Shown here piece after piece: positions 18,925 to 33,325 of a stretch of 64,000 nucleotides of DNA. Made by a program: the position numbers and the translations under genes. The notes below the pieces were generated by a model. The model did not search any database, was not told where the DNA came from, and saw only the letters and a program-made list of their open reading frames with translations. Source of the stretch: a virus; IMG/VR virus record IMGVR_UViG_3300005095_000072, positions 1 to 64,000 of that record, one strand, 5' to 3'. The first letter of the stretch is position 1. Each line of letters starts with the position of its first letter.

Positions 18925-19566
18925 ATGGAAAAAATAAAACAAATAGACAATTTCAAAGATTATATAGAGTTAGCTCTAAGAACTGAATCTATAAATAATC
19001 CTCTATGTGCTACAGATGGACTTCATAGATTATTACATGGAACTATTGGTGTAGTTACAGAAGTAAATGAACTAAGAGTAGCTTTAAATCTTAATGACAA
19101 TGTAAATACATTAGAAGAGATTGGAGATATATTTTGGTATATAGCTATAATTACAAACTGCTTGGTGGAAGATTTTAATTTTAAAGATAATGAGAATAGT
19201 CATTTAGTGGAAGATATAAACTTCTTACTCTTTGAAGCTATAACACCAACTGATAATATCTTTGATAAGATATACAATAGCTCAACTGATAGCTTAGATT
19301 TGCTAAAGAAAGTCTTATTCTATAATAAACCTGTCATAAATGTTATAGATGATTTAGGAATTAACTTGTTAAATACAGCTTTATATGCTTCTGAGTTAGT
19401 TAGACAAATGGGTGAAGATATATCTGTAGTATTAGCTACAAATATAAATAAGTTAAAAGCTAGATACCCTGAGAAGTACTCAGATAGTAAAGCAGATGAA
19501 AGAGACTTAAATACAGAAAGAGATATACTTACTGATTCTTTTACTATTAAACCTTTAGAAGACTAG
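18925..19566 (+). CDS. MazG-like nucleotide pyrophosphohydrolase
   Basis: LHGTIGVVTEVNEL..LEEIGDIFWY and NINKLKARYP motifs. Confidence 0.8.
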   Translation: MEKIKQIDNFKDYIELALRTESINNPLCATDGLHRLLHGTIGVVTEVNELRVALNLNDNVNTLEEIGDIFWYIAIITNCLVEDFNFKDNENSHLVEDINFLLFEAITPTDNIFDKIYNSSTDSLDLLKKVLFYNKPVINVIDDLGINLLNTALYASELVRQMGEDISVVLATNINKLKARYPEKYSDSKADERDLNTERDILTDSFTIKPLED

Positions 19567-19599
19567 GTAGTGAAATAGTTTTCTAAAAAAGGATAAATA

Positions 19600-19935
19600 A
19601 TGAAGATTATAGCAATGAAGTCATCAACGGTAAAATTTACAGCACCTAAAATCGAAAATATGTTTGTTAGAGAGCTGAAAAGACTTCCTAAGTTAAATAA
19701 AATATTTTCTAATATAGTAACTGTAGTTACTAAAAAGCTTAGAGATAAGACAGAATTTATTTTTAGTTTAAATTTCAATGAAGCTTTGAGTAATGATTTA
19801 AAAGAAAAATATAGTATGCTTGTAAAGATGTCTATCGCTCATAAGCTTAAGGGTAGTAATTACAGAGTAGAGATAAAGCAGATTAAATCTGTTAAGGATA
19901 ATGAGTTAAGATATAAGGTTATAGTGTATATTTAA
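19600..19935 (+). CDS. hypothetical protein (MKIIA N-terminus)
   Basis: AAGGA RBS. Confidence 0.55.
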   Translation: MKIIAMKSSTVKFTAPKIENMFVRELKRLPKLNKIFSNIVTVVTKKLRDKTEFIFSLNFNEALSNDLKEKYSMLVKMSIAHKLKGSNYRVEIKQIKSVKDNELRYKVIVYI

Positions 19936-19945
19936 TTATATCATA

Positions 19946-19978
19946 TTTAAGCTAGTTTTAAGTTTATTATGATATAAT
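19946..19978 (+). promoter_or_regulatory. host sigma70-type promoter (Campylobacterota style)
   Basis: TTTAAGctagtTTTAAG...TGaTATAAT; near-identical copies at 23267 and 31320. Confidence 0.75.
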
Positions 19979-20383
19979 TATAGATGGTTAAAAAGTTAAA
20001 GCTCTTTGGCTATTGTTCTTTTTATGTTTATATTTGTTTAGAGAAAATTATAATATAAGTAGCTTTATATAAAAGTTTATGTAATCGCAATTTATATTCC
20101 ATAATATAGAGTTTCAAACTAAGTGCTATATAAGATTTGTTAGAAAAAATAATATAGAGGGCTGTTAAATGGCTATATAAAGCAAAAGTATTATAAAAGA
20201 GTATCAAAGTATATCTTAGTCATCTATGGCTCTTAGAATCTAGTTTAAGAGTGATTAAGATATATAATCAAGCAAATATAAATATATGTTCTTTAAAAAG
20301 ATAATGTTAAAAATCTAAATATTACTAAAGCTTATAGTATCTCTAATCCTTAAAGATTTTAAAAATTCTAATAAGGAAAGAAA
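19979..20383 (+). ncRNA. structured 5' leader A (homologous to leader B), with boxA-like motifs and the 5' arm of a long-range stem
   Basis: Shares ordered blocks with 31354-31771; 20314-20348 is complementary to 22322-22354. Confidence 0.65.
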
Positions 20384-22297
20384 ATGAAAAAATTTGATAA
20401 ATTTCAAAGAGATATTATAAATTATGAAGTAAAAGAGGATTCATGTCTTACAGTCCAAGCAGGTGCAGGTAGTGGTAAATCAACTACAATGGTCGGAAAG
20501 TGTATGAGATTGATTGAAGATGGATTAAATCCTAGTTCGATATTGATGACTACATTTTCTAATAAGTCTGTGAGAGATTTAAAACATAAATTTAAAGCAA
20601 TGTATCCTAATCAAATAAAGTTACCTCAGATAACAACTTTACATAGTTTTGGTATTTACCTTTTAAAAGAGGTTATAGGTCTTGATTTTAAAGTTATAAA
20701 TGAAAGTCAAGCTACTAAGCTAATGTTAGAGGTGTTAGAAGAGGAAGGCTTTTTTGAAGATGTAGAAGATAAGCAAAAATACCCTTTTGCTAAAACAGTT
20801 CAAGAATATATAGCTGTTTATAAAGAGCAGAACTTAGGGTATCTTGAAATATTGTCAGATAAAGACTTTGATATTTTTCAATATTCAAATGAAGTAACTA
20901 AGGTCTTTAATCGTTTTCAATTCTTAAGAATAGCAAAAGCATATCATAACAAAAAACAAAGTGAAGAGGTCTTAGACTTCGGAGATTTGGTATATGAAGC
21001 TTTTCATATCTTAAGAGAAAATGAAGAGATTTTAGAAGATGTTAGAAAAATGTTTAAGTTTGCTATAATCGACGAAGCTCAAGATATTAATCAAGTTCAA
21101 TGGGATTTGATTATGCTTATCTTTCAAGGAAAGAAACTTGTCGCTGTTGGTGATAGAGTCCAAAATATCTATAATTTTAGATATTCTATGCCTGAGAACT
21201 TTACTCCTGATTATTTAGGTAAATTTTTCTCTAATGTTAAAGAATTAGAGTTAAAATATAACTATAGGAGTAAAAAAGAGATAGTGGAATTTGGAAACAT
21301 TGTGAGAGTCATTGCAGGTAATACTTTGCAGTTGTTACCATATCAAGAGAGCAAACCTGACTCTGTGAGATTTGAAGCTGTATATGATAATGTACAAGAA
21401 GGTAATAAAGTTGCTGAAATCATAAAGGATTTGGTAGAAAATCAAGGTTACGATTATAAAGATATTAGTATAGTTATTCGTGGCAATGCTGTTATTAAAA
21501 CTATAGTTGAACCTTCTCTTATTAAAGAGAAAATCCCTTATCTTATTAAAAATAATACCACTGGGGCAAAAATGACAGATAGGCTTTCAACGGAGTTGTT
21601 TTTTAATGCTTTGTCTGTAGTCTATGATATAAATGATAAGTTTGCTTTTGTGGATTTTTTAAGAGAGTTGGATTATCCTTTGGAAGAAATAGAAAAAGTA
21701 TCAGATTTTCTGCAAAATAATCCTTTAGAAGATGTTACGAGCTTAGATGATGAGTTCATAACAGATTTGTATAATAATTTTGTATCTATGCATGATTTGC
21801 TTGATGGTTATGATAAAGTTGAAATCATCTTATCTGATATATATCATATTATTAAAAATAATGTAAATTCGGTCTATGGTGGGGATTTAAGTTTAGTGTA
21901 TAAATCTATTGTAAATCTTTGGTATAACATCAAGGCTGAAAATACAGAGAGTAGTATAAAAGAGACTCTCCAAGAGATGATAGTAAGGGTAAGAGATTTT
22001 GATGAAGCAAAAGAAGCAAACAAAGTACAGTTAGGAACTATCCATAGTTTTAAAGGATTGGAAAGTAAAGTATCTATAGTTTGTGGATTTACAAGCTTTC
22101 GCCCTAAGAAAGACCCTCTTAATGATGAAGCAAATATGCTTTATGTGCAAGTATCAAGAGCTATGGAAAAGCTATTTATAGTAAATAGCTACAATTTTGT
22201 TAGCAAGAATTTTAAAACAAGTGAAGGTTATATAAATGAGTATCTTTCAAGTGCTGTTTTAAAATATAAAAGGCTTAGAGGTTTGATAAGAGGTTAA
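20384..22297 (+). CDS. UvrD/PcrA/Rep-family SF1A helicase (paralogue 1, acidic)
   Basis: AGAGSGKS, TFSNKS, TLHSFG, IIDEAQD, VGD..Q, NYRS, TIHSFKGLE, YVQVSRA. Confidence 0.9.
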   Translation: MKKFDKFQRDIINYEVKEDSCLTVQAGAGSGKSTTMVGKCMRLIEDGLNPSSILMTTFSNKSVRDLKHKFKAMYPNQIKLPQITTLHSFGIYLLKEVIGLDFKVINESQATKLMLEVLEEEGFFEDVEDKQKYPFAKTVQEYIAVYKEQNLGYLEILSDKDFDIFQYSNEVTKVFNRFQFLRIAKAYHNKKQSEEVLDFGDLVYEAFHILRENEEILEDVRKMFKFAIIDEAQDINQVQWDLIMLIFQGKKLVAVGDRVQNIYNFRYSMPENFTPDYLGKFFSNVKELELKYNYRSKKEIVEFGNIVRVIAGNTLQLLPYQESKPDSVRFEAVYDNVQEGNKVAEIIKDLVENQGYDYKDISIVIRGNAVIKTIVEPSLIKEKIPYLIKNNTTGAKMTDRLSTELFFNALSVVYDINDKFAFVDFLRELDYPLEEIEKVSDFLQNNPLEDVTSLDDEFITDLYNNFVSMHDLLDGYDKVEIILSDIYHIIKNNVNSVYGGDLSLVYKSIVNLWYNIKAENTESSIKETLQEMIVRVRDFDEAKEANKVQLGTIHSFKGLESKVSIVCGFTSFRPKKDPLNDEANMLYVQVSRAMEKLFIVNSYNFVSKNFKTSEGYINEYLSSAVLKYKRLRGLIRG

Positions 22298-22321
22298 AAT
22301 CCTCTTATCATAAATGTATAT

Positions 22322-22354
22322 GATTAGAGTCTATAAGCTTTAGTAATATTTAGA
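22322..22354 (+). other. 3' arm of long-range stem A (inverted repeat of 20314-20348)
   Basis: 24-nt perfect plus 8-nt perfect reverse complement separated by an internal loop. Confidence 0.85.
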
Positions 22355-22365
22355 GAGGTAAAAAG

Positions 22366-23271
22366 ATGAGTGAAAATCAAGATATAAAGCTGTTAGAAAA
22401 AACAGACGATTTACTATGGGTAGTAGAAAATGAAAAGTTTGTCTATGATAGTGGCAACTGGTTTTGTATAGCTGAAAGCTGTGAAGGTTGTGAGTATAAA
22501 GAGGTATGTCAGTATGAAGAAGATGAACTTGAAATATCTCTTATTAAAGCTACAAGACGAAATGTAGGGGCAGGGTTTAAGGAAGATATAGGAGATGAAC
22601 CATCTTCTGAGAAAATAGATATAAATAAATTAGAAAAGTATCAAAATAAACATCTTAAGTGGATTGATAATGAAAAAGGTTATTTACCTATAAGTAATAA
22701 GAGGATATATAAAAAGATTATAAATATAAAAGAAACCAACTATAAAAAGAATGAAATACCTTTCGTTTTATATAGTGAAGATGATGAAGCTTATTATTGT
22801 GTTAGACAAGTTTGTTCTAATTGTAAATATCTTGATAAGTGCAAGGTAGAGTTACAAGAGAAAGACTTTCAAATGTTAGTAGTGTCTAATGATATTCGTA
22901 GTCAAGAACCTAGAGGATTTACAATTTTATCTAAAGAACCAAATTGGGTTTCTGTCTTTGTTAACGACAATCTGAGACAGGAAAAAGGGTTATTAGATTT
23001 TATAGATTTTATTTTTAGAGAAGAGTTAAGGGTAGATGTAAAATCAGACCAAGCTTATTTTACATATCTTGATAATAGATTTTTCTTTGATAGAACTTTA
23101 CTTTATAAATTAAATTACAATTGTTTGAAATATCAAGAAACTGAAAAAGTAGAGTATAAGAGAGAGATAGAAAAGTTAATTAAACACTTTAAAGAAGATT
23201 ATAACAACTTTAAGGAAAATGAGTTAGGAAAAACAGTTAAAATAGCAAATATAAAAAATTTAAAGATTTAA
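22366..23271 (+). CDS. hypothetical protein with two Cys4 clusters
   Basis: CIAESCEGCEYKEVC and CVRQVCSNCKYLDKC. Confidence 0.6.
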   Translation: MSENQDIKLLEKTDDLLWVVENEKFVYDSGNWFCIAESCEGCEYKEVCQYEEDELEISLIKATRRNVGAGFKEDIGDEPSSEKIDINKLEKYQNKHLKWIDNEKGYLPISNKRIYKKIINIKETNYKKNEIPFVLYSEDDEAYYCVRQVCSNCKYLDKCKVELQEKDFQMLVVSNDIRSQEPRGFTILSKEPNWVSVFVNDNLRQEKGLLDFIDFIFREELRVDVKSDQAYFTYLDNRFFFDRTLLYKLNYNCLKYQETEKVEYKREIEKLIKHFKEDYNNFKENELGKTVKIANIKNLKI

Positions 23272-23299
23272 GCTTGTTTTAAAGTTATTATGATATAAT
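23267..23299 (+). promoter_or_regulatory. host sigma70-type promoter upstream of the sigma-like gene
   Basis: TTTAAGcttgtTTTAAAgttattaTGaTATAAT. Confidence 0.7.
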
Positions 23300-23327
23300 T
23301 AAATATCTAAAAATTTTAAGGAAAAAG

Positions 23328-24416
23328 GTGGGTAATATGGCATTATATAAGACTATTGAAATTTTGGAAAAGTCTATATGGGAGCAGTTGAGAATAGCAG
23401 GATTAAAAGAGATAGCAGAACAAGAGAAAATAAATATAGCATCTCTTTTATGGAACTTATCTTCTAAATATTTATCGTATTATATAGAGGATATTAAAGA
23501 AGAACTTTTATATGATATGTTTGTTGATGTATATCTTAGAAAGTTGGAGCAGTTAGAAGAAACTTATAACAAGAAACAAAAATTATACACTTTCTTATAT
23601 AGTATAATGAAGAACTCTCTTATATATCATAGTAATAAAAGGTTACAAGTATTACAAATGCAAAAAGATGTAAATCCTATTGAAGACGAAAGTGAAGGTG
23701 AAGCTTGGGATAGAGTTACAATGGGTAAATCTTCTGTTAAAACTACATCCACTTATGGTGATGATTTATATTATGATAGTTTAATAGAGGATTATACTAA
23801 TCTTCTAAATAGTATTCTCCTTGAAGAGAGAGAAGTAGATAACCCTAAAAAAGTTATAGATAGTCTTAAAAAGAAAATAGATAAGCTTAAAGAACAAAAA
23901 TATAAAGCTGAGGGGTTTATGTCTAATGAAAAAATAGTATCTAGTAAGTTTGCAGATATGTATAGACCTGATTACAATGATATAGATGTAGAGGGAGAAG
24001 AAGATTATAAAAAATATGTAGATATGTTAAAAAATAAGCTGTTAGAGAAAGTTTATAAGTTCAGACAAGAATATATTAAAAGTTGGGATGATAAAAAGTT
24101 AAAAGTCATAGATTTACTAATTAATGATTTTTCTTTTAGTGAGATAGCATATCTGTATGGGGTAACAGGGGTTACTATTTCTAAGTGGGTAGAACAGATT
24201 AAAGATGCTTTTATAGAGGTAGGAGAAGAGTTAGAGTTTTTTACAGATGATAACTCTCTCATAAATTCTATCATAGATTGGCTAGATTGTGTAGATGAAA
24301 GTAAAAACACTAAAAAGATTTTAAGAATAGATATGAGTATCGTAGAACAAAATGTTTGTAATTTGTTTGGAGAAGACTTTCTTAGAGAGATAAAGCAATA
24401 TGAAAACAAAAGGTAA
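23328..24416 (+). CDS. putative phage RNA polymerase sigma factor (ECF-like sigma2 plus sigma4 HTH)
   Basis: ELLYDMFVDVY..LYTFLYSIMKNSLIYH resembles ECF region 2; FSFSEIAYLYGVTGVTISKW is a region-4-like HTH. Confidence 0.6.
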   Translation: MGNMALYKTIEILEKSIWEQLRIAGLKEIAEQEKINIASLLWNLSSKYLSYYIEDIKEELLYDMFVDVYLRKLEQLEETYNKKQKLYTFLYSIMKNSLIYHSNKRLQVLQMQKDVNPIEDESEGEAWDRVTMGKSSVKTTSTYGDDLYYDSLIEDYTNLLNSILLEEREVDNPKKVIDSLKKKIDKLKEQKYKAEGFMSNEKIVSSKFADMYRPDYNDIDVEGEEDYKKYVDMLKNKLLEKVYKFRQEYIKSWDDKKLKVIDLLINDFSFSEIAYLYGVTGVTISKWVEQIKDAFIEVGEELEFFTDDNSLINSIIDWLDCVDESKNTKKILRIDMSIVEQNVCNLFGEDFLREIKQYENKR

Positions 24417-24933
24417 AAGCTTTAAGTGGCAAAAGCTAACTAAAGAAGAGATAAGTAATATTATCTCTTTTATCAATAATAGTGTAGATTTTGTAGATGT
24501 ATTAGAGAAGAACTGTAATATTAGTTTATCTCATAATCAATTACCTACAAACATATTTTGTCCTTTTCATGATGATATAGATGAACCCTCTGCTAGGGTG
24601 TATGCGAATAACTCTGGTATGTATTGTTACGGTTGTGGTAGGAATTATACTTCCTATGATGTTGTGAAAATTGTAAATGGCTTTAAATTCGCTCAGGTGG
24701 TCGATTATTTTAAAAGCGAGTATAATATTGAGATTAATCAAGATTCGCTCTTAGATGGGAATTATGAGCTGAACAGGAGGGTATCTTATTATATCAATAA
24801 GCTAAGAGATAGTGATAAGCAATTATCTAAAAAAGATATAGATAAAATATCTTTTTATCTCAAAAGCTCTTTTGCTAAGGATAGATTATCAGTTAATTTA
24901 AAGAAAACTGTAAATAGTATTATATATCAATAA
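24400..24933 (+). CDS. stand-alone primase CHC2 zinc-binding domain protein
   Basis: CPFHDD..PS..V......YCYGCG. Confidence 0.8.
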   Translation: MKTKGKSFKWQKLTKEEISNIISFINNSVDFVDVLEKNCNISLSHNQLPTNIFCPFHDDIDEPSARVYANNSGMYCYGCGRNYTSYDVVKIVNGFKFAQVVDYFKSEYNIEINQDSLLDGNYELNRRVSYYINKLRDSDKQLSKKDIDKISFYLKSSFAKDRLSVNLKKTVNSIIYQ

Positions 24934-24944
24934 AAGGTGGGTAG

Positions 24945-26708
24945 ATGAAGTGCGACATTAATTTAGTAAGCTTAGTTCATTTAGATTTGTTAGAAGATGT
25001 TGAATATAGAAATGCACTTATAAAAAGCGAAGATAGAATAAAAGAAACTATATGTAAAAAAGTTCCTTATGATGGATTATTTAGAAAAGAGCTATTAGAA
25101 AAAAGTAAAACTTTCAAATGGTTAAAAGATGTTGAAACTATTTTGATACATAATACAAATGGAGAAGTTACTGACGAAGATTTTTTAATGGAGTTCGCAG
25201 ATAATCTGTTAGATGAAGCTTTGGAAATAAGTAAAGATTTAGTAGGAATTGAAGAGGATTTACCTTTAATAGCACTAGATTTAGAAACAACTGGGTTAGA
25301 TACTTCTGTTACAAGTGAAGGTGGAGAACTAAAAATAAAATCTGAAATTGTAGGAGTCTGTTTAGCTAGTTCATCAGATAGAGGTTATTATCTACCTGTA
25401 ATGCATACAGAAGAGGATGGGGTTAAGAACTTAGATTTAAAAGCTGTATTAAAGATGTTACAGTATTTAGTTGATAACTCTTTTATTATTTATCATAATT
25501 ATTACTATGATGGTAGTATCTTAGCTAATAATAAAATTAGATTGAATTATAACTATGCTGACACTCTTCTCATTGCAGATAGTATAGGTATGAAAGAATG
25601 GGACGGTGTTTTTGGGATAGGATTGAAGTTCTTATCTCAATATTGGTTAGATAGAAAAATGTTAGAGATACACGAGATGTTAGGTAGAAAAGATATTGTT
25701 ATGTTTAACTCTTTAGCTAGTAATGACGCTGTTGTTTATGGAGCAAGTGATGCTATGAACACCTATGGGTTATTTGAAGTAATGGTGTTAAATGCTGATG
25801 ATGAAGATAACCCTTATATATTTAATAAAACTGCTATGAAGTTAGATGTTAAGACTTTAAATCATATAATTTCAATGTTTAGGTGGGGATTACCTATTGA
25901 TTATGAAGCTCTTAAAAGAAGTATATACACTTTAGAAAGACGGATTATGATTATGCAAAGGGTTTATGCTGATTATGAAATAACTGATGGGTATTCTATT
26001 TCAAGTGCAGAACAAGTTAATTTTATGTTAGGTAAATTTTTCTCTGATAGATATTTAGAGAGATATGGAATGGAGCTAACTGTTGATTCTGATTTGAACT
26101 CTAAAGTTATGAAAGATTTGAAAAAGAAACTATTTGATGATTTTGGATTAGAGTTAAAAATAAAGAAACTAAAGAACTCGGAAAAGTTACAGTTCGCAAC
26201 TAGAAAAATAGGAAAAAGTGGAGTACCTGTTTTAGTGTGGGTGCAAAATAATATAGATAAGTGGGATTTTATAGACGAAGACGAAAGAAATGATGTTTAT
26301 TGGCTTTGTAAATTAATTGAAAATTATAGAAGTATGATAACTGAACAAGGTCGTCTTGGGAAGATGTATCGTTATGCTTATAATGATAGTAACAATATGG
26401 TTAGAGTTGGAATTAAACTTAACTTCAACGGGGCTGATACAAAAAGACTAAGTAATATGAGTGGAAAAGGCTCTGATAGAATTAGCTTGAATATTACTAA
26501 AACTGGGAAAGTAAATGCTAAGTTTATAGCAGGAGATGGTATCTGTGGTATAAATGCACAAGGTGTTCCCTCAACTCCTCATAAAACTATTAAAGCTAAA
26601 CGGCTGAAAGTTTTACCTGATGATATGCTTGATTATCTTTCTGAGGAATACTCTTTATTAGATGAATATCACAAAGATTTGTTGATAAATATATCTGCTA
26701 AGAAGTAA
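24945..26708 (+). CDS. family A DNA polymerase, N-terminal half (3'-5' exonuclease plus thumb)
   Basis: DLETTGL, HNYYYD, DTLL, YGASDA exonuclease motifs; DTKRLS..INAQGVP (TGRLS/NLQNIP equivalents); stops before motifs A-C. Confidence 0.8.
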   Translation: MKCDINLVSLVHLDLLEDVEYRNALIKSEDRIKETICKKVPYDGLFRKELLEKSKTFKWLKDVETILIHNTNGEVTDEDFLMEFADNLLDEALEISKDLVGIEEDLPLIALDLETTGLDTSVTSEGGELKIKSEIVGVCLASSSDRGYYLPVMHTEEDGVKNLDLKAVLKMLQYLVDNSFIIYHNYYYDGSILANNKIRLNYNYADTLLIADSIGMKEWDGVFGIGLKFLSQYWLDRKMLEIHEMLGRKDIVMFNSLASNDAVVYGASDAMNTYGLFEVMVLNADDEDNPYIFNKTAMKLDVKTLNHIISMFRWGLPIDYEALKRSIYTLERRIMIMQRVYADYEITDGYSISSAEQVNFMLGKFFSDRYLERYGMELTVDSDLNSKVMKDLKKKLFDDFGLELKIKKLKNSEKLQFATRKIGKSGVPVLVWVQNNIDKWDFIDEDERNDVYWLCKLIENYRSMITEQGRLGKMYRYAYNDSNNMVRVGIKLNFNGADTKRLSNMSGKGSDRISLNITKTGKVNAKFIAGDGICGINAQGVPSTPHKTIKAKRLKVLPDDMLDYLSEEYSLLDEYHKDLLINISAKK

Positions 26709-26722
26709 AAAAGTAGGAAAAG

Positions 26723-28720
26723 ATGAAACGACTTAAAAAGGCAAAAAGAAACACACTTATAAAAATTGATGGTGTTACCTTAGATAAATATCAAAGTAAA
26801 GTTTATAAGAAAAATATTGATAATAATGAAGCACTTATAATTCAAGCAGTGGCAGGAGCAGGTAAATCTACTACAATGATATATAAAGCTTATAGGTATA
26901 TTGTTAAAGATAAGGTAGAACCTGAAAAAATATTATTAACAACTTTTAGTAATAAATCTGCTAGAGATTTAAAGAATAAATTTAAAAAGGTTGCTAGAGG
27001 AAAGATAACAGGAAGTCCTATTATCACAACTATTCATTCTTTTGGTATTCATATTATTAAAAAATATTTAGGTAATACAACTCCTATCATATTATCTGAG
27101 TGGAAGTCAATATTACTTATAAGAGAGATAGCAGATGATATAGGTTTATTTGTAACAGAAGACGATATACCATTAAAAAAGAAAGAGCAAACTGTAATAG
27201 CTAGAAAAATCTATGAAGCTTTAGACTATTTAAAATCTAATATGATAATAAATAGTATTGATAAGTTCAAGGAAAAAGACTTTAATATTCACGATTACAA
27301 AAACTATGAAGCTTATTTTACTTCTATAGCTTTTAATGAAGTTGCATACAGGTATGAAAAGCAAAAAGAAAAGTTAAAGATGTATGATTACCACGATTTA
27401 GTTTTTAAGATATATTCTATATTAGTTCATCAACCTACAATATTGAAAAAAGTCAAAAAAGATTTAGAAGTATTTATTATAGATGAAGCACAAGATTTAG
27501 ACAGTTCTCAATGGGCTATGCTGTTGCTGTTAGCTAAAGGAAAAAAGCTCATAGCTGTTGGAGATAAAATGCAGAACATATATAATTTTAGATATTCTGT
27601 ACCTCATAATTTTACTGTAGAGTATTTATCAAAACATTTCAAAAAAGTTCATAAGTTACCTTTGGTAAATAATTATAGAAGTACAAAAAATATAGTAAAT
27701 GTTTCTAATTTAGTCCGTAAGTTATATAAGGATGAGTTAGAAGCTGTAGCTATAAAAAGCAAAGAACAGAACTCTGTTAAGATAATATATGCTAGAAGTA
27801 ATATCCAAGAGGGTAAATTAATAACTGACAATATAAAAAGATTGAGAAAAGAGGGGTATAACTATAAAGATATAACTATCATCTGTAGGAGTAATAGTTA
27901 TATAAAAACTGTAGTTGAACCTGCTTTAGTTAGAGACAATCTACCATATAATATTTTAACTAAGTCTGTCGCTAAGAAACTAACAGATAAAGTATCTAAT
28001 CAAATATACTTCAATATTTTATCATTAATAGTTAATCCAAATGATTTTACAGCTTTAGCAGACTTATCTGCTTATATTAGAGATTGTGGGGAGAAATTTC
28101 AAAACGATTTAACTAAACAATTATTAAAGTATGGTGATATAAGGAAAGTTAGATTTGATACTAAACAGGCTAAATATAAGCTAGATAAAGTAATAAAAGT
28201 ATATCAGTATATATTTGCTATAAGAAAGAATTTAAGGTCTGTAAATGAAATGCACAAAGCTTTAGATGTTATATCTTATTTAGTTCGCTCAGAGTTCAAG
28301 GAAGATATATTATCAAAGAAAGAACAAGATACTATTGAAAAGGTTATTACTAATTGGGTTAATTATTATGCTAAGGACGGCATAGTAGATGTATTTGAGA
28401 ACTTAAATCAAGTACTATTCGAGATAGATAGTTTTGATGAAGACGAAGAAGTGGATAAAGTTAAGGTAGGAACTATTCATTCTCAAAAAGGACTTGATAA
28501 TCCTGTTTCTATTGTATCAGGCTTTAATACATATAAGCCAAGATCAGACCCTTTAAATGATGAGTGCAATATGTTATATGTACAGTTATCTCGTGCAGTA
28601 GATAAACTAATAATAATAGTTTCAGATAAGTATGTCTTAAAAGATGGAACTGTGTTAAATGGTAATATATTAGCTCCTATGAAAAAGATATTAGATGTCG
28701 TTTATTTTAATAAACAGTAA
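26723..28720 (+). CDS. UvrD/PcrA/Rep-family SF1A helicase (paralogue 2, basic)
   Basis: AVAGAGKS, TFSNKS, IIDEAQD, NYRS, TIHSQKG, YVQLSRA. Confidence 0.9.
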   Translation: MKRLKKAKRNTLIKIDGVTLDKYQSKVYKKNIDNNEALIIQAVAGAGKSTTMIYKAYRYIVKDKVEPEKILLTTFSNKSARDLKNKFKKVARGKITGSPIITTIHSFGIHIIKKYLGNTTPIILSEWKSILLIREIADDIGLFVTEDDIPLKKKEQTVIARKIYEALDYLKSNMIINSIDKFKEKDFNIHDYKNYEAYFTSIAFNEVAYRYEKQKEKLKMYDYHDLVFKIYSILVHQPTILKKVKKDLEVFIIDEAQDLDSSQWAMLLLLAKGKKLIAVGDKMQNIYNFRYSVPHNFTVEYLSKHFKKVHKLPLVNNYRSTKNIVNVSNLVRKLYKDELEAVAIKSKEQNSVKIIYARSNIQEGKLITDNIKRLRKEGYNYKDITIICRSNSYIKTVVEPALVRDNLPYNILTKSVAKKLTDKVSNQIYFNILSLIVNPNDFTALADLSAYIRDCGEKFQNDLTKQLLKYGDIRKVRFDTKQAKYKLDKVIKVYQYIFAIRKNLRSVNEMHKALDVISYLVRSEFKEDILSKKEQDTIEKVITNWVNYYAKDGIVDVFENLNQVLFEIDSFDEDEEVDKVKVGTIHSQKGLDNPVSIVSGFNTYKPRSDPLNDECNMLYVQLSRAVDKLIIIVSDKYVLKDGTVLNGNILAPMKKILDVVYFNKQ

Positions 28721-28739
28721 AAACAATAAAGGAAAGAAG

Positions 28740-29570
28740 ATGTTAAGATTTATAAGATACCAACTTTTTAAACATTTTAATTTATATAGAAGTGAGTTCA
28801 TCACAACTAGAGCTTTAGTCCCTATTAAGTTATTTGATGAAAAGTATTTAAAGAATGAAATAGATAGATATATTTTAAGTGAAAAGGTCGATAAACTTCA
28901 AAAGAAAAAAGAAAAGCTAGTTAAAGAAACTAAAGAGTTAGAGCAGGGGTTATCTCATTTTAAAGGTAAAGTAGATAAAGAACTGTTTGATTTAATGAAG
29001 CAGTATTTAGAGTTAAGAGAGAAATTAGCTACCTCTAAAGAAGATTTAGAAGATATACAAAAAATGAAAGAAGACTTTTTAAATCAAGATAGTAGTAATA
29101 AAAAACAAAAAACTATAAAAAAGAAACCTAAATATGAAAAGAAAACTAAATTATATAAACATCTTGCTAGTATATATCATCCAGATAAAGCACCAAAAGA
29201 TAAGAAAGATTTGTATAAAGATATATTTATAGAACTTAATGAAATTTATAGATTAGGTGATTATAAGGCTTTAGTGAAGTTTCAAAAAAGAGTTAAACAG
29301 ATGTTATTTAAAAGTAAAAGAGTTTCTTTTTTAAGGAAAGTATTAAAGCAGTTAAAACAAGAGATAGCTATGTATTCTAAACAACTGGAAGAAGCTAAGA
29401 AGACTGAAATATATAAAAATTATATTATGTGTAAGGATAATCCTTATTATATGAGTGTGTATATCAGAAAAGAGAGACATAAGTTACAAAGAACTATAGA
29501 AGAATTAGAAAATATTTATTACAGCTCAATAAGAAATAGTATTACAAGATATGAGTATAACATTTTGTAA
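28740..29570 (+). CDS. coiled-coil protein with internal J-domain (DnaJ-like)
   Basis: LYKHLASIYHPDK....FIELNEIY (HPD motif). Confidence 0.7.
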   Translation: MLRFIRYQLFKHFNLYRSEFITTRALVPIKLFDEKYLKNEIDRYILSEKVDKLQKKKEKLVKETKELEQGLSHFKGKVDKELFDLMKQYLELREKLATSKEDLEDIQKMKEDFLNQDSSNKKQKTIKKKPKYEKKTKLYKHLASIYHPDKAPKDKKDLYKDIFIELNEIYRLGDYKALVKFQKRVKQMLFKSKRVSFLRKVLKQLKQEIAMYSKQLEEAKKTEIYKNYIMCKDNPYYMSVYIRKERHKLQRTIEELENIYYSSIRNSITRYEYNIL

Positions 29571-29580
29571 AGGATTAAGT

Positions 29581-30000
29581 ATGGATAAGAACAAAACCAT
29601 AGATGAAAATATAAAGATAAGAGAAAGATGGAATAATCTTATAGGAACTGATGTTAGATACCACTTTGGAGAGTGGGTGTTTAATACAGAACCTAATTTA
29701 AAAGATTCTCAATATTTTGTTATAGAGGATATAGAGAAGAGAGAAATACTTGGTGGAGTTCTTTTTGTAGTTAAAAATGACCATATTTTTATAGATAAGA
29801 TATATTCAACTACAAAAGGTTATGGAACTAAGTTACTCGATATAGTTATAGCTATCAGTAGAACTATGTATAATAATTTACCTATTTTATTAAAGGTATA
29901 TAATGATAATGTCTTAGGGTTTTATCTTAAGAATTATTTTAAAATAAAAGATGTACGAAATGATTATAAGCTCATGGAGTATTTTAAAGATTCTAAATAA
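29581..30000 (+). CDS. GNAT-family acetyltransferase
   Basis: KGYGTKLL motif A; L.V..DNVLGFYLKNYF motif B. Confidence 0.7.
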   Translation: MDKNKTIDENIKIRERWNNLIGTDVRYHFGEWVFNTEPNLKDSQYFVIEDIEKREILGGVLFVVKNDHIFIDKIYSTTKGYGTKLLDIVIAISRTMYNNLPILLKVYNDNVLGFYLKNYFKIKDVRNDYKLMEYFKDSK

Positions 30001-30011
30001 AAGGAAGAACT

Positions 30012-30692
30012 ATGGAAGTTGGAACTCAAGAATATCTTGTCAATGATATAGAAACTGTAATTAAATACATCGGTGAAAAGATTGGTGTAGATTATGAAGT
30101 AACTTTAGACAATGAAGATAGCAGTAGAGGTAGTATAGTAATTTTTGAGTTAGAAGAGGAGGAGCATTTAGCTTTGAGAAACTTCATAAGTAAAAATAGC
30201 TTATGGTTAGAGGATAACAAACAAGATGATAGTATTAGGTTTAAACTTTTAGAAAGACGAGTTTCCTATAAAGAAGCACTTGAGATATGTTCTGAACAAG
30301 GTTGGAGATTAATCTCTAAAAATGATATAGATAATCCAAAATTAATAGAGCTATTGAGAGAGAAACAACCTAAAAATTTTATATGGTGCAAGGAAGAAGC
30401 ACCTAGAAAATCTGAGTGGGATTCTATGGTAGCTACTCATCAATATGCTATATATTTTGAAAATGATAAGATTGAACTGTGTGATATATCTCCTCTGAGG
30501 TTAGAAAGAGTCATTGTAAAGATAGACAAGAATAAAGTTAATATAGGTGATAAGGTAGTACATAATAACAAAATAAAGACAGTAACTCATATAGTATATA
30601 GAGTAGAAGATTTAACAGAAATATATAGATTAAACAGTGAAGACGAGTGGTTAAAAAGAAGTGAGTTCATAACTAAAGAGGATTTAAGATGA
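30012..30692 (+). CDS. hypothetical protein
   Basis: AAGGA RBS. Confidence 0.6.
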   Translation: MEVGTQEYLVNDIETVIKYIGEKIGVDYEVTLDNEDSSRGSIVIFELEEEEHLALRNFISKNSLWLEDNKQDDSIRFKLLERRVSYKEALEICSEQGWRLISKNDIDNPKLIELLREKQPKNFIWCKEEAPRKSEWDSMVATHQYAIYFENDKIELCDISPLRLERVIVKIDKNKVNIGDKVVHNNKIKTVTHIVYRVEDLTEIYRLNSEDEWLKRSEFITKEDLR

Positions 30693-30928
30693 AAAAAGCT
30701 AAAAATAGAACAGTAAGCATCGATGAGATTATAGACTTCTTAGATGAGAATAATTTTAGTTATATGTTGAACTTAGGTTATGTTAGTGGTATAGGTATAA
30801 ATGTTTTAAGAATAAAATTTTATGATAAAGATGGAGAACCTATAAACGATTTAAGGTTTATTATAGATGTATATCAAGATGTAATAGAACAGTTACAAAG
30901 TGAGTTAAAAAGGAACGGATTATTATGA
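30689..30928 (+). CDS. hypothetical protein
   Basis: GAGGA RBS, coupled. Confidence 0.55.
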   Translation: MKKAKNRTVSIDEIIDFLDENNFSYMLNLGYVSGIGINVLRIKFYDKDGEPINDLRFIIDVYQDVIEQLQSELKRNGLL

Positions 30929-31290
30929 TATATGTTAGCAATTTTGCTAGTCTTAGAAAGATAGACAAAGATAATAAATATAAAGATTTAGAAAGAGTTG
31001 CTATTGTTAGGTATAAGTTAAAATTCTTAGATAATTTTTCTAATTTGAAGTTCGATAGATTTATAGCTCCAAGTTCAAGATTGTTAGATGAGTTTAAAGC
31101 ATGTAAAGTAAATCAAGATTTTTATAAGAGAGTTTATTTAAAGAAGTTAGATAAGATAGGTCATAAAAAGTTATATAGTAGATATAAGAATAAAATCTTG
31201 TTATGTTATTGTGGTAAAGGTAAATTTTGTCATAGATATTTGTTTATGGATTATATGCTTAAAAATGGTTATAATGTTAAGGAAATATAA
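30925..31290 (+). CDS. DUF488-like protein
   Basis: IAPS..LL...Y...LLCYC....FCHR motif. Confidence 0.7.
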   Translation: MIYVSNFASLRKIDKDNKYKDLERVAIVRYKLKFLDNFSNLKFDRFIAPSSRLLDEFKACKVNQDFYKRVYLKKLDKIGHKKLYSRYKNKILLCYCGKGKFCHRYLFMDYMLKNGYNVKEI

Positions 31291-31319
31291 TCTTATAGAA
31301 AATTCAAAATTATATTAGA

Positions 31320-31353
31320 TTTAAGCTAGTTTTAAGAATTAGTATGGTATAAT
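31320..31353 (+). promoter_or_regulatory. host sigma70-type promoter (Campylobacterota style)
   Basis: TTTAAGctagtTTTAAG...TGgTATAAT. Confidence 0.75.
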
Positions 31354-31771
31354 TATCTTAGATAAAGAGGTAAAAGGCTTTATCTATGTTCTTTATCTTT
31401 ATGGTGTTTAGAGAAATTTTATAAGCTAGTATGCTTATATGAAGATTTAAGTAAATCCAAATCATCTAAGCTTTAGGTGGTGGGGTGTTAAATTGGATTA
31501 TAAGAGGAAATCTTATAAAAGAGTATCAAAGCTTAAGAGGTTTAATAAAAGCTCTTATATCTCAATTCTATTAAGATATAATGGTAAATCTTTTGAGTAT
31601 TCAAGCATTATAAAGATAGTGTTATTTAAAAATTTAATGTTAATTGGAAATATCCTTTATAAGGCTAGTTCCTTAGTCATAAAAAATATCTATCTATTTA
31701 TGCTTATTTTTATAAGTAGGTATAGATAGGTTAAATCCTAAAATTTTAAAAATTCTTATAAGGAGCAAATT
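31354..31771 (+). ncRNA. structured 5' leader B (homologous to leader A), with boxA-like motifs and the 5' arm of a long-range stem
   Basis: Shares ordered blocks with leader A; 31643-31678 is complementary to 32589-32624. Confidence 0.65.
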
Positions 31772-32581
31772 ATGGCAGAGAAAAAAGGAACTAGTTTAGT
31801 AGGTAAAGTTGTTGAAGTTGGTGGAAAAGAGTATAAAGTCATCGATGAAACAAAAAGTGTTCTTAAATGTGAGGATTCAAAAGGTGTTACAAAAAATATC
31901 TTAAAGAAAGCAAAAGCATTTAAAAGCTTAAAAATCATTGGTGATGCAGAAGCTCATGAGGCTAAAGAAACAAAAAAACCTACAAAAGAGGAGAAAGAGG
32001 TCGAGAAAAAATCATCTCCAAAAGCTGAGGTAAAACCTGTTGCTAAAGAGATAGACCCTGATGAGTGGGATAAGGAAAGTGGAAAACTTCTCTTAGAAGC
32101 TGAAGCAGAGGGGCAAGATAGTCCAGACTTCCTTTATGAGAGTTATCGTCATGTTGAGTTTTGGGTATATTCAATCCAAAGAGCTACAAAGGCTCAGAGA
32201 GTAGAATATATAAAAGCAAAGCTCAAAAAAGAGGGTAAAAATAGTCCATTTGGATTAATGTTATCTTCTTATAAAAGAGGTAACAAAATCAATCTTGATA
32301 GAGCGAAGCTCATCGATATGGTTTTAGTTGATAGAGTGCAAGAAGGTAAAAGAGTCAAAAAGCTAAATGTTGCTAAAATCATGGAAGAGCTTGATAAGCT
32401 TAAAGGTAGAAGTAGAAGCAAAATCAAGAGAGAAGAGTATGAAAGACTTATTCATCTTGTTCCTGATGACGGTATCGATGGTTTTCAAGGTTGGGCTTTC
32501 TATATGATAAGTGGAGAGTTTTACAGAGATATAGGTCTTAAGCTTACAACTAAAGAGCTTGAAGCTTTTGATTTATATTAA
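31772..32581 (+). CDS. hypothetical early protein (distant paralogue of 33749..35089)
   Basis: Strong AAGGAG RBS; small N-terminal beta domain plus K/E-rich linker. Confidence 0.7.
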   Translation: MAEKKGTSLVGKVVEVGGKEYKVIDETKSVLKCEDSKGVTKNILKKAKAFKSLKIIGDAEAHEAKETKKPTKEEKEVEKKSSPKAEVKPVAKEIDPDEWDKESGKLLLEAEAEGQDSPDFLYESYRHVEFWVYSIQRATKAQRVEYIKAKLKKEGKNSPFGLMLSSYKRGNKINLDRAKLIDMVLVDRVQEGKRVKKLNVAKIMEELDKLKGRSRSKIKREEYERLIHLVPDDGIDGFQGWAFYMISGEFYRDIGLKLTTKELEAFDLY

Positions 32582-32588
32582 GATATAA

Positions 32589-32624
32589 GGCTAGGGAGCT
32601 AGTCTTATAAAGGATATTTTCAAT
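32589..32624 (+). other. 3' arm of long-range stem B (inverted repeat of 31643-31678)
   Basis: 36 contiguous pairs: 31 Watson-Crick plus 5 G-U. Confidence 0.85.
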
Positions 32625-32650
32625 ATTCTAAAAATTCTAAGGAGTAAATC

Positions 32651-33289
32651 ATGAGTTTAAAAGTTAGAAAGTTAGGTGACTATGGTTGGGCTGTATATAA
32701 AGATAGTAAAGTAGAATTTACTGTTAATGGTTTAACTGACCTAGTAGATAATCTAAGGAATATAGGGTTAGAGGATAAAGCAATAAACTCTATGATAGAT
32801 GAAGCTAACCTATTTGCTAATAAATGGTATATGGGTATAGATTTAGAGTCAGATGGAGTTTATCCTGATGAACCTACCTATGTTGATTGGATATATGAAT
32901 ATGAGAAGTTTAATGATAAGTTCGGCTATAAAGATTGGAGAGAGCTTAGGTTAGCTTTAGCAAAAACTGACTATAGTAAGCTGTCTGATATAGAAAAACA
33001 AGCTTATGGAAAGTGGGAAGTCTATGAAATAGAGGAGAAAACTGCTACAGCTTGTTTTGGCTGTGTTAAAAGTATGGCTAAGGTTGTTAGTTTAGGAAAT
33101 ATGCAAAAAGTTATAAGCTCCATCCCTAAAGAGTATCATAGCTTACCTGTAACATTGGATTTGGATAGAGATTACACTTGGAGTGAAGTAGAGAGAATCT
33201 TTGTAGTTTCTAAGGGGGATTTAGAATTAAATGAATGTAGTTTCTTTATGTATGAAGGCTGTCAAGTTATCATTGAAGGAGGTGCATAA
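32651..33289 (+). CDS. hypothetical early protein
   Basis: AAGGAG RBS. Confidence 0.65.
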   Translation: MSLKVRKLGDYGWAVYKDSKVEFTVNGLTDLVDNLRNIGLEDKAINSMIDEANLFANKWYMGIDLESDGVYPDEPTYVDWIYEYEKFNDKFGYKDWRELRLALAKTDYSKLSDIEKQAYGKWEVYEIEEKTATACFGCVKSMAKVVSLGNMQKVISSIPKEYHSLPVTLDLDRDYTWSEVERIFVVSKGDLELNECSFFMYEGCQVIIEGGA

Positions 33290-33294
33290 AGCTT

Positions 33295-33325
33295 AAGGTT
33301 AGATGATTTCTCACCTAACCTTTTT
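33295..33325 (+). terminator. intrinsic terminator
   Basis: AAGGTTAGATGA-tttc-TCACCTAACCTT plus T tract. Confidence 0.6.

What the first reader, a model, noticed from the sequence alone, without database searches (positions are those of the whole stretch)
19946..32624. Pre-rRNA-like packaging of phage mRNAs: ORFs looped out by long-range 5'UTR/3'UTR stems placed directly after a boxA-like motif
Seen directly, twice. Unit A: 20314-20348 (TCTAAATATTACTAAAGCTTATAG-tat-CTCTAATC) is the reverse complement of 22322-22354 (24 perfect plus 8 perfect bp) and encloses the whole 1.9-kb UvrD-1 gene. Unit B: 31643-31678 pairs with 32589-32624 over 36 contiguous bp and encloses the 0.8-kb gene 31772..32581. 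All 5 non-Watson-Crick positions in B are G-U on the + strand, which points to RNA-level selection. The two stems share no sequence, yet each starts within ~3 nt of the same conserved block TGTT(C/A)TTTAAAAA..TAATGTTAA (20287, 31620). Established knowledge: rRNA operons have a promoter, then boxB/boxA (TGyTCTTT...), then a long stem enclosing 16S; NusA/B/E/G-SuhB promote antitermination and stem formation, and RNase III cuts the stem. Inference: the phage mimics rrn architecture so that early mRNAs are made processively and excised or stabilised as end-paired (or possibly circularised) transcripts. I know of no description of this for phage protein-coding genes.
Basis: partly seen in the sequence, partly recalled or inferred. 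Interest (0 to 1): 0.9.

Follow-up and report, generated by a model that had tools for sequence, protein, structure and literature searches.

The report
Phage genes wrapped in long RNA stems
In an uncultured 118-kb phage, two genes each sit inside a long RNA helix formed by the two untranslated ends of their message, right after a short motif like the boxA signal of ribosomal RNA operons, so the messages look like small rRNA precursors.

Summary
Unit A pairs 20314-20348 with 22322-22354 (24+8 Watson-Crick bp) around a UvrD-type helicase gene. Unit B pairs 31643-31678 with 32589-32624 (36 contiguous bp, 5 G-U, all on the + strand) around a 269-aa gene of unknown function. They are the two best helices in the 118-kb genome (scores 74.5 and 53.0; maxima of 5 shuffles 36-39.5).

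New here: the two upstream gaps are homologous throughout. Each has a host-type extended -10 promoter, a 5' hairpin, TGTTCTTT, a covarying stem closing about 230 nt, the GTTMTTTAAAA block, then the ORF-enclosing stem. The one relative whose DNA I could fetch (G001; proteins 25-71% identical) has a 22-bp (extended about 38-bp) helix of unrelated sequence around the gene B orthologue, after the same block. Its UvrD flanks are also complementary, but more weakly, and that helix is not in the minimum-energy fold.

An RNA-level, sense-strand function is well supported. RNase III cutting and Nus/boxA involvement are inferred. The host is unknown, no RNA data were listed, and the boxA match is short and imperfect. 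I found no published description. Earlier notes of this scan report the same design in other phages.

The parts
19946..19978 (+). Promoter of unit A: TTTAAGCTAGTTTTAAG, 7 nt, then TGATATAAT (extended -10). It is one of 5 copies of this promoter type in the genome.
   Evidence: Copies at 19946, 23267, 31320, 65911 and 73194. The transcription start about 7 nt after the -10 is inferred.
19985..20021 (+). 5' terminal hairpin (about 19985-20012) followed by the first boxA-like TGTTCTTT (20014-20021).
   Evidence: The hairpin is in the MFE. TGTTCTTT occurs only 3 times on the + strand of the 118-kb genome, and all 3 are in the two leaders.
20023..20286 (+). Leader RNA A, closed by a long-range stem (20023-20043 with 20267-20286; 17 WC + 2 G-U) around about 230 nt.
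   Evidence: dG -16.5 on the + strand, -8.4 on the - strand. The homologous stem in leader B has a different sequence.
20287..20310 (+). Conserved block A2: TGTTCTTTAAAAAGATAATGTTAA (boxA-like GTTCTTTAAAA plus AATGTTAA).
   Evidence: Exact match to GYTCTTTAANA (consensus taken from PMC5725501).
20314..20348 (+). 5' arm of the helix that encloses the unit A ORF.
   Evidence: dG -42.0; 24/24 in the MFE of the 2.1-kb unit.
20384..22297 (+). Enclosed gene A: UvrD/PcrA-type superfamily 1 helicase, 637 aa.
   Evidence: PF00580, E=8.9e-49; phrog_1967, E=9.8e-71.
22322..22354 (+). 3' arm of the unit A helix. It starts 24 nt after the stop codon and ends at the Shine-Dalgarno sequence of the next gene (ATG at 22366).
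31320..31353 (+). Promoter of unit B, same type as in unit A, with TGGTATAAT.
31360..31394 (+). 5' terminal hairpin (31360-31385) followed by the first boxA-like TGTTCTTT (31387-31394).
31393..31619 (+). Leader RNA B, closed by a long-range stem (31393-31413 with 31600-31619; 15 WC + 4 G-U).
   Evidence: dG -17.9 on the + strand, -8.3 on the - strand.
31620..31643 (+). Conserved block B2: TGTTATTTAAAAATTTAATGTTAA. It has A where boxA has its C.
   Evidence: The same A variant is found in the G001 orthologue.
31643..31678 (+). 5' arm of the helix that encloses the unit B ORF.
   Evidence: dG -54.8; 36/36 in the MFE, mean pair probability 0.99.
31772..32581 (+). Enclosed gene B: 269-aa protein of unknown function.
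   Evidence: No Pfam or PHROG family. No homologue in the word-based search. Orthologue in G001 at 37% identity, E=4e-46. The Atlas gave no lead.
32589..32624 (+). 3' arm of the unit B helix. It starts 7 nt after the stop codon.

Best explanation
Host RNA polymerase starts at two copies of an early, extended -10 promoter. Each transcript begins with a small hairpin and a boxA-like UGUUCUUU. Next comes a roughly 230-nt folded leader closed by its own stem, then a second boxA-like block (GUUMUUUAAAA-N4-AWUGUUAA), and then one ORF whose 5' and 3' untranslated ends pair into a 32-36 bp helix.

Shown: the helices exist, act on the sense RNA strand, lie wholly outside the coding sequence, and are kept at one orthologous gene in a diverged relative although the arm sequence has changed completely.

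Inferred:
(1) A 32-36 bp duplex is a substrate for the host double-strand RNA endonuclease RNase III. Cutting would release the ORF from the leader and from the downstream polycistronic RNA. It would leave an mRNA whose two ends stay paired in the inner half of the helix and are therefore shielded from 5'-end-dependent and 3' exonucleases.
(2) The boxA-like motifs load the host NusB/NusE-based antitermination complex. This carries the polymerase through about 330 nt of untranslated leader, and, as proposed for pre-rRNA, keeps the 5' arm near the polymerase until the 3' arm is made 0.9-2 kb later.
For: Anatomy is.

Significance: helix scores are 74.5 and 53.0, against shuffle maxima of 36-39.5 (5 shuffles). 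The local tests give 77 and 64, against about 24-27 +/- 4.

Sense-strand RNA: all 5 non-Watson-Crick pairs in B are G-U on the + strand. The + strand duplex is more stable than the - strand duplex in 5 of 6 helices, which hold 16 G-U pairs in all.

Thermodynamics: the helix is in the MFE for A (24/24), B (36/36, probability 0.99) and B' (21/22, probability 0.90).

Conservation:
- G001 shares 69 ORFs with this genome at 25-71% identity.
- G001's best helix genome-wide (48687-48708 with 49614-49635) encloses the gene B orthologue. Locally it extends to about 38 pairs (SW 56 against 28.3 +/- 3.9; dG -42.0).
- That helix directly follows GGGTTATTTAAAATCATATTGTTAAGC.

In G000, only the two genes that have the long leader have enclosing stems. 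The next-best gap pairs score 37 or less.

No intrinsic terminator-like site was found in 19800-23400 or 31200-33400, so the arms lie inside longer transcripts.

Established knowledge seen in papers:
- rrn operons have boxB/boxA/boxC followed by 25-40 bp leader-trailer helices that RNase III cuts (PMC10250234, passages).
- B. subtilis rrn transcripts begin with a small hairpin directly followed by a boxA-like sequence (PMC13753749, passages).
- B. subtilis RNase III cuts 10-36 bp duplexes formed over as much as 505 nt within mRNAs (PMC11780869, section 24).
- T7 has a boxA behind its early promoters (PMC3709561, passage).
Against: - There is no transcript, cleavage or stability data. No sequencing run was listed.
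- The host is unknown, so the motif could not be compared with the host's own rrn boxA.
- The boxA match is short. GYTCTTTAANA also occurs at 2839 (+) and 5 times on the - strand. TGTTCTTT on the + strand is not over-represented (3 seen, 2.5 expected). The copies in B and G001 carry A at the C position, and a C4T/T6C double mutant abolishes E. coli boxA function (PMC5725501, passage).
- G001 has no forward match to the consensus.
- In 2 of the 27 IMG/VR stretches that carry the block (L035, L052), it reads as an UP element plus a -35 (TTGTTA, 17 nt, TATAAT). Only G001 shows a clear stem after it.
- The UvrD stem in G001 is weak: 0/23 in the MFE, and one of 25 shuffles reached 43 against its 47.
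- Covariation rests on a single relative.
- Neither phage encodes RNase III, NusB or NusG, so every factor would have to come from the host.
Confidence: 0.5

Rival explanations
1. The helices work as uncut 5'UTR/3'UTR clamps, as in B. subtilis hbs or S. aureus icaR mRNA. They would tune stability or translation of the enclosed gene or the downstream gene. The conserved block would not be boxA but a binding site for another host or phage protein, or simply part of the fold.
For: This rival shares all the structural evidence of the main reading. The 3' arm of A ends at the Shine-Dalgarno sequence of the next gene. Part of the block (AUUGUUAA) is itself paired in the extended G001 helix. The C-to-A variant is kept in both B orthologues, which fits a motif that differs from boxA. 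Precedents were seen in search listings and abstracts (PMC5737220, PMC3868564).
Against: A 32-36 bp near-perfect duplex is longer than the duplexes RNase III is reported to cut (10-36 bp, PMC11780869), so escaping cleavage would need a special reason. The repeated order hairpin, UGUUCUUU, stem, twice per leader, is the rrn order.
Confidence: 0.27
2. The conserved block is a promoter (A-rich UP element plus a -35-like TGTTAA/TTGTTA). The mRNA would then start at or inside the 5' arm, and the helix would simply cap a primary 5' end. No Nus factors would be involved.
For: In L035 and L052 the same 23-nt motif is followed at 17 nt by TG-TATAAT. GATAAT at 20300-20305 is -10-like, and a start about 7 nt further on would fall at the first arm base.
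Against: No acceptable -10 lies 16-18 nt after TGTTAA in A, B or G001 B'. The -35 positions that would go with GATAAT/TTTAAT read TATAAA/ATAAAG, and there is no TG extension (read). The block occurs only twice in the genome, whereas the real promoter type occurs 5 times. The consensus promoter scan is uninformative in this AT-rich DNA (22 found, 21.2 expected).
Confidence: 0.1
3. The repeats act at the DNA level, as remnants or substrates of recombination: inversion, a mobile gene cassette, or terminal inverted repeats.
For: Inverted repeats that flank genes are typical of mobile elements. A's arms are perfect Watson-Crick, so they carry no strand information.
Against: - All 5 differences in B, and 16 across the six helices, are G-U on the coding strand.
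- I saw no target-site duplication when reading the arm flanks.
- The enclosed genes are a helicase and a conserved phage protein, not a recombinase.
- The gene B locus is syntenic in G001, while the arm sequences are unrelated. This is what selection for pairing would give, not common descent of a repeat.
Confidence: 0.03

Closest known systems
Bacterial rrn operon leader and spacer: boxB hairpin, boxA, boxC, then the 16S and 23S leader-trailer helices cut by RNase III (PMC10250234; B. subtilis version in PMC13753749)
   Same: The order of parts matches: strong host promoter, small 5' hairpin, U-rich GUUCUUU-type motif, then the 5' strand of a 19-36 bp helix whose partner lies 0.2-2 kb downstream. 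The module occurs twice in one transcript. The helix lengths fall in the 25-40 bp range reported for rRNA, and the loop sizes (0.9 and 2.0 kb) are like those of 16S and 23S.
   Different: The looped-out RNA is a translated protein-coding ORF with its own Shine-Dalgarno sequence, not an rRNA. No boxC equivalent was identified. Two of the four window copies depart from boxA in the AA that follows TCTTT, and one departs at the conserved C. Nus binding and RNase III cutting are untested.
Phage T7 early region: boxA behind host promoters A1-A3 (PMC3709561, passage). That RNase III cuts between the early genes is my recollection, not from a call.
   Same: A phage uses a host promoter and boxA, and dsRNA processing splits a polycistronic early RNA into stable messages.
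   Different: As I recall them, the T7 RNase III sites are local hairpins between genes. Here the duplex is formed by the two ends of one gene's message across 0.9-2 kb.
[quoted passage not shown]
   Same: mRNA duplexes of 10-36 bp form between distant segments and are cut on both strands with a 2-nt offset.
   Different: The reported spans reach 505 nt. They are not described as enclosing a whole ORF from UTR to UTR or as following a boxA.
5'UTR/3'UTR pairing in hbs (B. subtilis) and icaR (S. aureus) mRNAs (PMC5737220 and PMC3868564; search listings and abstracts only)
   Same: The two untranslated ends of a bacterial mRNA pair and control its stability or translation.
   Different: Those are single cellular genes with shorter pairings, they have no boxA-like leader, and they are not phage genes.

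Membership tests
rrn-type antitermination site (boxA, NusB/NusE-binding RNA) | Sequence matches the boxA consensus (E. coli UGCUCUUUAACA; gamma-proteobacteria GYTCTTTAANA; B. subtilis AUGAUCUUUGAAA; Taylorella TGTTCTTTAACA). | tested here: inconclusive
   20288 GTTCTTTAAAA matches GYTCTTTAANA exactly. 31621 GTTATTTAAAA and the G001 copy have A at the C position. 20015 and 31388 keep GTTCTTT but not the AA that follows. The consensus also occurs at 6 other places in the genome. Consensus sequences were read in PMC5725501, PMC13753749 and PMC2666751 (passages).
rrn-type antitermination site (boxA, NusB/NusE-binding RNA) | Identical or near-identical to the boxA of the host's own rrn leader and spacer. 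| not testable with these tools
   The host is unknown.
rrn-type antitermination site (boxA, NusB/NusE-binding RNA) | Position: in the transcript shortly after a promoter, after a boxB-like hairpin, and before the 5' strand of a long helix. | tested here: met
   Hairpin, then TGTTCTTT, then the stem at 5-8 nt for the first copies. The block precedes the stem by 22-26 nt for the second copies, measured from the GTT start.
rrn-type antitermination site (boxA, NusB/NusE-binding RNA) | Binds NusB/NusE and confers resistance to termination. | not testable with these tools
   This needs binding or read-through assays.
Leader-trailer (processing) helix, RNase III substrate | Long-range duplex of about two helical turns or more, formed by sequences that flank the looped-out RNA on the transcribed strand. 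| tested here: met
   A has 24+8 bp and B has 36 bp. Both are in the MFE of the whole unit. Asymmetry favours the + strand.
Leader-trailer (processing) helix, RNase III substrate | Pairing is kept in relatives while the sequence changes (covariation). | tested here: met
   Met for gene B: the G001 helix has an unrelated sequence and scores SW 56 against 28.3 +/- 3.9. Inconclusive for UvrD: SW 47 against about 27-28 +/- 4.4, but 0/23 in the MFE. Only one relative was available.
Leader-trailer (processing) helix, RNase III substrate | Staggered cleavage of both strands by RNase III. | not testable with these tools
   No RNA run was listed. Neither phage encodes an RNase III.

The most novel reading that the evidence does not exclude
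Phages of several unrelated lineages build some early messages as small pre-rRNAs. A host promoter and a boxA recruit the rRNA antitermination and chaperone complex, which escorts the transcript and helps its two ends pair across kilobases. RNase III then releases a translated mRNA whose ends stay clamped together. This would be a general, so far undescribed way of making stable, insulated mRNAs by borrowing the ribosome-biogenesis machinery. Here it is combined with a stem-closed non-coding RNA of about 230 nt released from the same transcript.
Probability: 0.3. Interest if true: 0.85.

Novelty: new variant of a known kind. Interest (0 to 1): 0.66.

Why it matters
If these helices are made and cut as inferred, the boxA/Nus complex and RNase III are used by phages to build protein-coding messages with protected, paired ends. 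Until now that machinery has been treated as dedicated to rRNA, with a few regulatory exceptions. Three questions would become directly testable: how kilobase-range RNA pairing is achieved while the RNA is being translated, how mRNA ends are protected in bacteria, and whether the rrn antitermination complex acts as a general RNA chaperone. It would also offer a compact natural design for insulating and stabilising single genes inside operons. If the motif is not boxA, the conserved UTR-to-UTR helices still stand as an unusually long-range mRNA structure in a phage.

Tried and rejected
Relatives
- No DNA match among 50,697 phage records. Only matches below 60% identity for UvrD, terminase and a 525-aa protein.
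- Single-protein scans of IMG/VR with UvrD and gene B found nothing. Alignment-based and pattern scans found only one contig, G001.
- The metagenome scan gave only an unrelated 27% helicase.
- The word-based homologue search found no relative of gene B, although G001 has one at 37% identity.
- Seven UvrD orthologues at 49-53% identity exist (P0005-P0011), but I could not fetch their DNA.
- G002 is a 144-kb phage-like contig in a MAG that shares 57 ORFs with this genome. It has only the UvrD2 paralogue (34% against 28% identity), no gene B match and no intergenic enclosing helix. It therefore says nothing either way.

Other negatives
- No Rfam family at E<=1 in 19000-33500. No tRNA gene in the window.
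- Sequencing runs: none was listed, and no RNA holder was listed.
- Consensus promoter and terminator scans are uninformative here.
- RNAduplex on whole gaps gave meaningless long AT-rich pairings, so I replaced it with contiguous-helix and Smith-Waterman pairing scans.
- The block GTTMTTTAAAANNNNAWTGTTAA occurs in 27 IMG/VR stretches (28 occurrences, 27 with enough downstream sequence to test). Only G001 has a clear stem (54 against a shuffle maximum of 38). L052 (38 against 32), L032 (35 against 30) and L051 (34 against 32) are marginal.
- Circular mRNA: no RtcB. The weak RNA_ligase match is an ATP-dependent DNA ligase.
- The Atlas search gave no lead on the function of gene B.
- I did not identify the host.

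Literature
Searches listed no paper that describes phage ORFs enclosed by leader-trailer-type stems after a boxA. Subscription journals are not covered and supplements were closed.

Full report
What the window is. The window is the first 64 kb of a 118,425-bp virus record with direct terminal repeats. It is about 28% G+C, and nearly all its genes are on the + strand: ORFs cover 114 kb on the + strand and 13 kb on the - strand. It has no DNA match among 50,697 phage records, and its proteins match cultured phages only at less than 60% identity. The host is unknown.

Checking the observation. Every stated coordinate holds.
- Unit A: 20314-20337 is the perfect complement of 22331-22354 (24 bp), and 20341-20348 of 22322-22329 (8 bp), across a 3-nt/1-nt internal loop.
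- Unit A encloses ORF 20384..22297, a UvrD-type helicase (PF00580, E=8.9e-49).
- Unit B: 31643-31678 pairs with 32589-32624 over 36 contiguous positions, 31 Watson-Crick and 5 G-U. All five G-U pairs read as G-U on the + strand.
- Unit B encloses ORF 31772..32581, a 269-aa protein with no Pfam or PHROG family.
- The block TGTT(C/A)TTTAAAAA..TAATGTTAA occurs only at 20287 and 31620 in the whole genome, even with three mismatches allowed.

Is this more than chance? I scanned all contiguous helices (G-U allowed) within 3 kb and scored them GC=3, AU=2, GU=0.5.
- Unit B scores 74.5 and the 24-bp part of unit A scores 53.0. Five dinucleotide shuffles of the genome peak at 36-39.5.
- Run length alone is weaker evidence, because 4 shuffles reached 21-26 bp.
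- A gapped pairing alignment of the two gene-free gaps around each gene gives 64 (A) and 77 (B), against 24-27 +/- 4 in 60 shuffles.
- Among 77 gap pairs of the genome, the next best after A score 37 or less. Unit B was masked in that scan by a spurious 78-aa ORF in its leader, so I tested it separately.
- Only these two genes are enclosed.

What surrounds the stems. The two upstream gaps (19936-20383 and 31291-31771) are homologous from end to end, as another note on this window also says (e1-6163381). Each gap contains, in order:
- The promoter TTTAAGCTAGTTTTAAG, 7 nt, then TG(A/G)TATAAT. This is an extended -10 promoter type present five times in the genome (19946, 23267, 31320, 65911, 73194).
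- A small hairpin at the inferred 5' end.
- TGTTCTTT (20014 and 31387).
- A long-range stem that closes about 230 nt (20023-20043 with 20267-20286; 31393-31413 with 31600-31619). This stem is in the MFE of both leaders (z = -2.9 and -4.3), and its arm sequences differ between the two copies while the pairing is kept.
- The second block (20287 and 31620).
- The ORF-enclosing stem.

TGTTCTTT occurs on the + strand only three times in 118 kb, and all three are in these leaders. The raw count is not above expectation, though (2.5 in shuffles). No terminator-like site lies in either region, so the arms sit inside longer transcripts.

RNA or DNA? The evidence favours sense-strand RNA.
- Duplex energies on the + strand against the - strand are: B -54.8/-33.8, the two leader stems -16.5/-8.4 and -17.9/-8.3, G001 B' -42.0/-32.9, G001 A' -38.8/-36.8, and A -42.0/-42.6. 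The six helices hold 16 G-U pairs, which would be A-C mismatches on the other strand.
- Folding each whole unit puts the long-range helix in the minimum-energy structure for A (24/24 arm positions; 2.1 kb), B (36/36; mean pair probability 0.99) and G001 B' (21/22; 0.90).
- The arms lie entirely in untranslated sequence. The 3' arms start 24 nt (A) and 7 nt (B) after the stop codons, so translation would not keep them apart, except perhaps the innermost pairs of B.
- I saw no target-site duplication at the arm flanks. The enclosed genes are not recombinases.

Relatives. I could reach only one relative with DNA: G001, a 109,819-bp IMG/VR contig. It shares 69 ORFs with this genome in the same order, at 25-71% protein identity.
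- G001's best helix genome-wide (48687-48708 with 49614-49635; 22 bp, 2 G-U) encloses a 269-aa ORF that is the orthologue of gene B (37% identity, E=4e-46).
- On its own that helix is not beyond genome-wide chance (44.0 against shuffle maxima of 34.5-43.5). Locally it is clear: it extends to about 38 pairs, with a pairing score of 56 against 28.3 +/- 3.9.
- Its arm sequence is unrelated to the window's unit B arms.
- It directly follows GGGTTATTTAAAATCATATTGTTAAGC, the same block as the window's TGTTATTTAAAAATTTAATGTTAA, which is itself preceded by a small hairpin.
- The gene B locus is syntenic, so this is a structure kept in place while its sequence turned over.
- For UvrD the picture is weaker. 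The G001 flanks are complementary (29193-29234 with 31474-31516; score 47 against 27-28 +/- 4.4) and are preceded by a hairpin and AAAGTTCTTATAG. One of 25 shuffles reached 43, however, and the helix is absent from the MFE (0/23).
- A third, more distant phage-like contig (G002, inside a MAG) has neither gene and no comparable helix.

Is the block a boxA? Consensus sequences I read in papers:
- E. coli UGCUCUUUAACA and B. subtilis AUGAUCUUUGAAA, which sits directly after a small 5' hairpin (PMC13753749, passages).
- Gamma-proteobacteria GYTCTTTAANA (PMC5725501, passages).
- Taylorella TGTTCTTTAACA (PMC2666751, passage).

The copy at 20288 (GTTCTTTAAAA) fits GYTCTTTAANA exactly, and the order hairpin, motif, stem is that of rrn leaders. 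The following points count against it:
- The consensus occurs at six other places in this genome and never on the forward strand of G001.
- Both gene B orthologues carry A at the C position. In E. coli a C4T/T6C double mutation abolishes function (PMC5725501).
- The first copies in each leader lack the AA that follows.
- In 2 of 27 other IMG/VR stretches that carry the block, it reads as an UP element plus a -35 hexamer in front of a TG-TATAAT. No acceptable -10 follows at 16-18 nt in A, B or B'.
- Neither phage encodes RNase III, NusB or NusG.

So the boxA reading is reasonable but unproven.

Mechanism. A 32-36 bp duplex lies at or beyond the top of the 10-36 bp range that B. subtilis RNase III is reported to cut in mRNAs (PMC11780869, section 24), and inside the 25-40 bp range of rRNA leader-trailer helices (PMC10250234). 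From this I infer the following steps:
- The host enzyme cuts both strands.
- The cut frees the ORF from the leader and from the downstream genes.
- The inner half of the helix is left holding the two ends of the message together.

The boxA-like motifs would load the Nus complex to carry the polymerase through about 330 nt of untranslated leader and to favour long-range pairing, as proposed for pre-rRNA. These steps are inference.

Compared with what is known. The nearest systems are:
- The rrn leader and spacer.
- The T7 early region. Its boxA is documented in a passage of PMC3709561. That it has RNase III hairpins between genes is my recollection.
- The hbs and icaR 5'/3' UTR pairings (search listings and abstracts only).

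None of these describes a phage ORF enclosed from UTR to UTR by a leader-trailer-type helix behind a boxA-like motif. Six literature searches listed no such paper. The library lacks most subscription journals, and supplements were closed.

Earlier notes of this scan report the same design in other, unrelated phages (e1-6017491, e1-6084508, e1-6053699 and others). One of them claims that RNA breaks at the helices. I did not test those notes, and they are not independent evidence.

Verdict. An RNA-level function for the helices is well supported for unit B and likely for unit A. RNase III processing and Nus/boxA involvement are plausible inferences. I rate this a new variant of a known kind, with interest 0.66.

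Noticed in passing
window 19946, 23267, 31320 (also G000 65911 and 73194): Five copies of one promoter type: TTTAAGCTAGTTTTAAG, 7 nt, then TGATATAAT/TGGTATAAT (extended -10). Only the copies at 19946 and 31320 are followed by the long leader. The one at 23267 leads directly into a sigma-factor-like gene (23328-24416; phrog_1740, E=1e-5).
   Followed up: partly
window 19928-19945 with 23289-23306, and 19928-19950 with 19963-19985: An 18-bp perfect inverted repeat. It arises because the sequence just upstream of the 19946 promoter is the reverse complement of the -10 region of this promoter type. This makes a dyad around the -35 region and could be an operator. A weaker version exists at 31310.
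   Followed up: no
window 20023-20286 and 31393-31619: Two homologous leader RNAs of about 230 nt, each closed by its own stem. They share the blocks TGTTTAGAGAAA and TATAAAAGAGTATCAAAG and contain differing hairpins. No Rfam match. This is also the subject of note e1-6163381.
   Followed up: partly
window 10915-11236: A 320-nt gene-free gap with two adjacent long stems (10951-10972 with 11052-11073; 11061-11110 with 11194-11243). It is preceded by TGATATAAT at 10866, inside the end of the upstream ORF. This is the subject of note e1-6163382.
   Followed up: no
window 59365-59389 with 61997-62021: A 25-bp helix (3 G-U) scoring 48.5, above the maxima of all 5 shuffles. Both arms lie inside coding sequence. 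A second such helix is at G000 104584-104605 with 107090-107111 (score 44).
   Followed up: no
G001 (L003 7720-7790, 8540-8600, 9750-9810, 13310-13370, 14060-14120, 15395-15445, 20195-20240): A repeated element of about 50 nt, CTTTAAGGnATTTTTAAGC...TTATCATTTC, sits roughly 35 nt before many start codons. It may be a phage-specific promoter or a 5' UTR element, and it is absent from the window's phage.
   Followed up: no
G001 33500-33573 with 34843-34916, and 48543-48612 with 50017-50086: Two more long, imperfect complementarities between gaps (scores 61 and 59, against about 30 +/- 4-5). The first encloses five small ORFs. The second encloses gene B' plus a thioredoxin-like gene. Part of the signal comes from a repeated, partly palindromic motif (GCTTATAAGC), so they may not be real helices.
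   Followed up: partly
L018-L027 (G002 contig 1, 144,436 bp): A contig binned in a MAG labelled uncultured Flavobacteriaceae is phage-like. It shares 57 ORFs with this phage, including a terminase at 45% identity, and is probably a phage genome that was binned with a bacterium.
   Followed up: partly
window 20357-20377, 31744-31764, 32626-32646: A shared motif, TTTTAAAAATTCT(A/T)ATAAGGA, lies in front of the start codons of gene A, gene B and the gene after B. It may be a common translation-initiation region.
   Followed up: no
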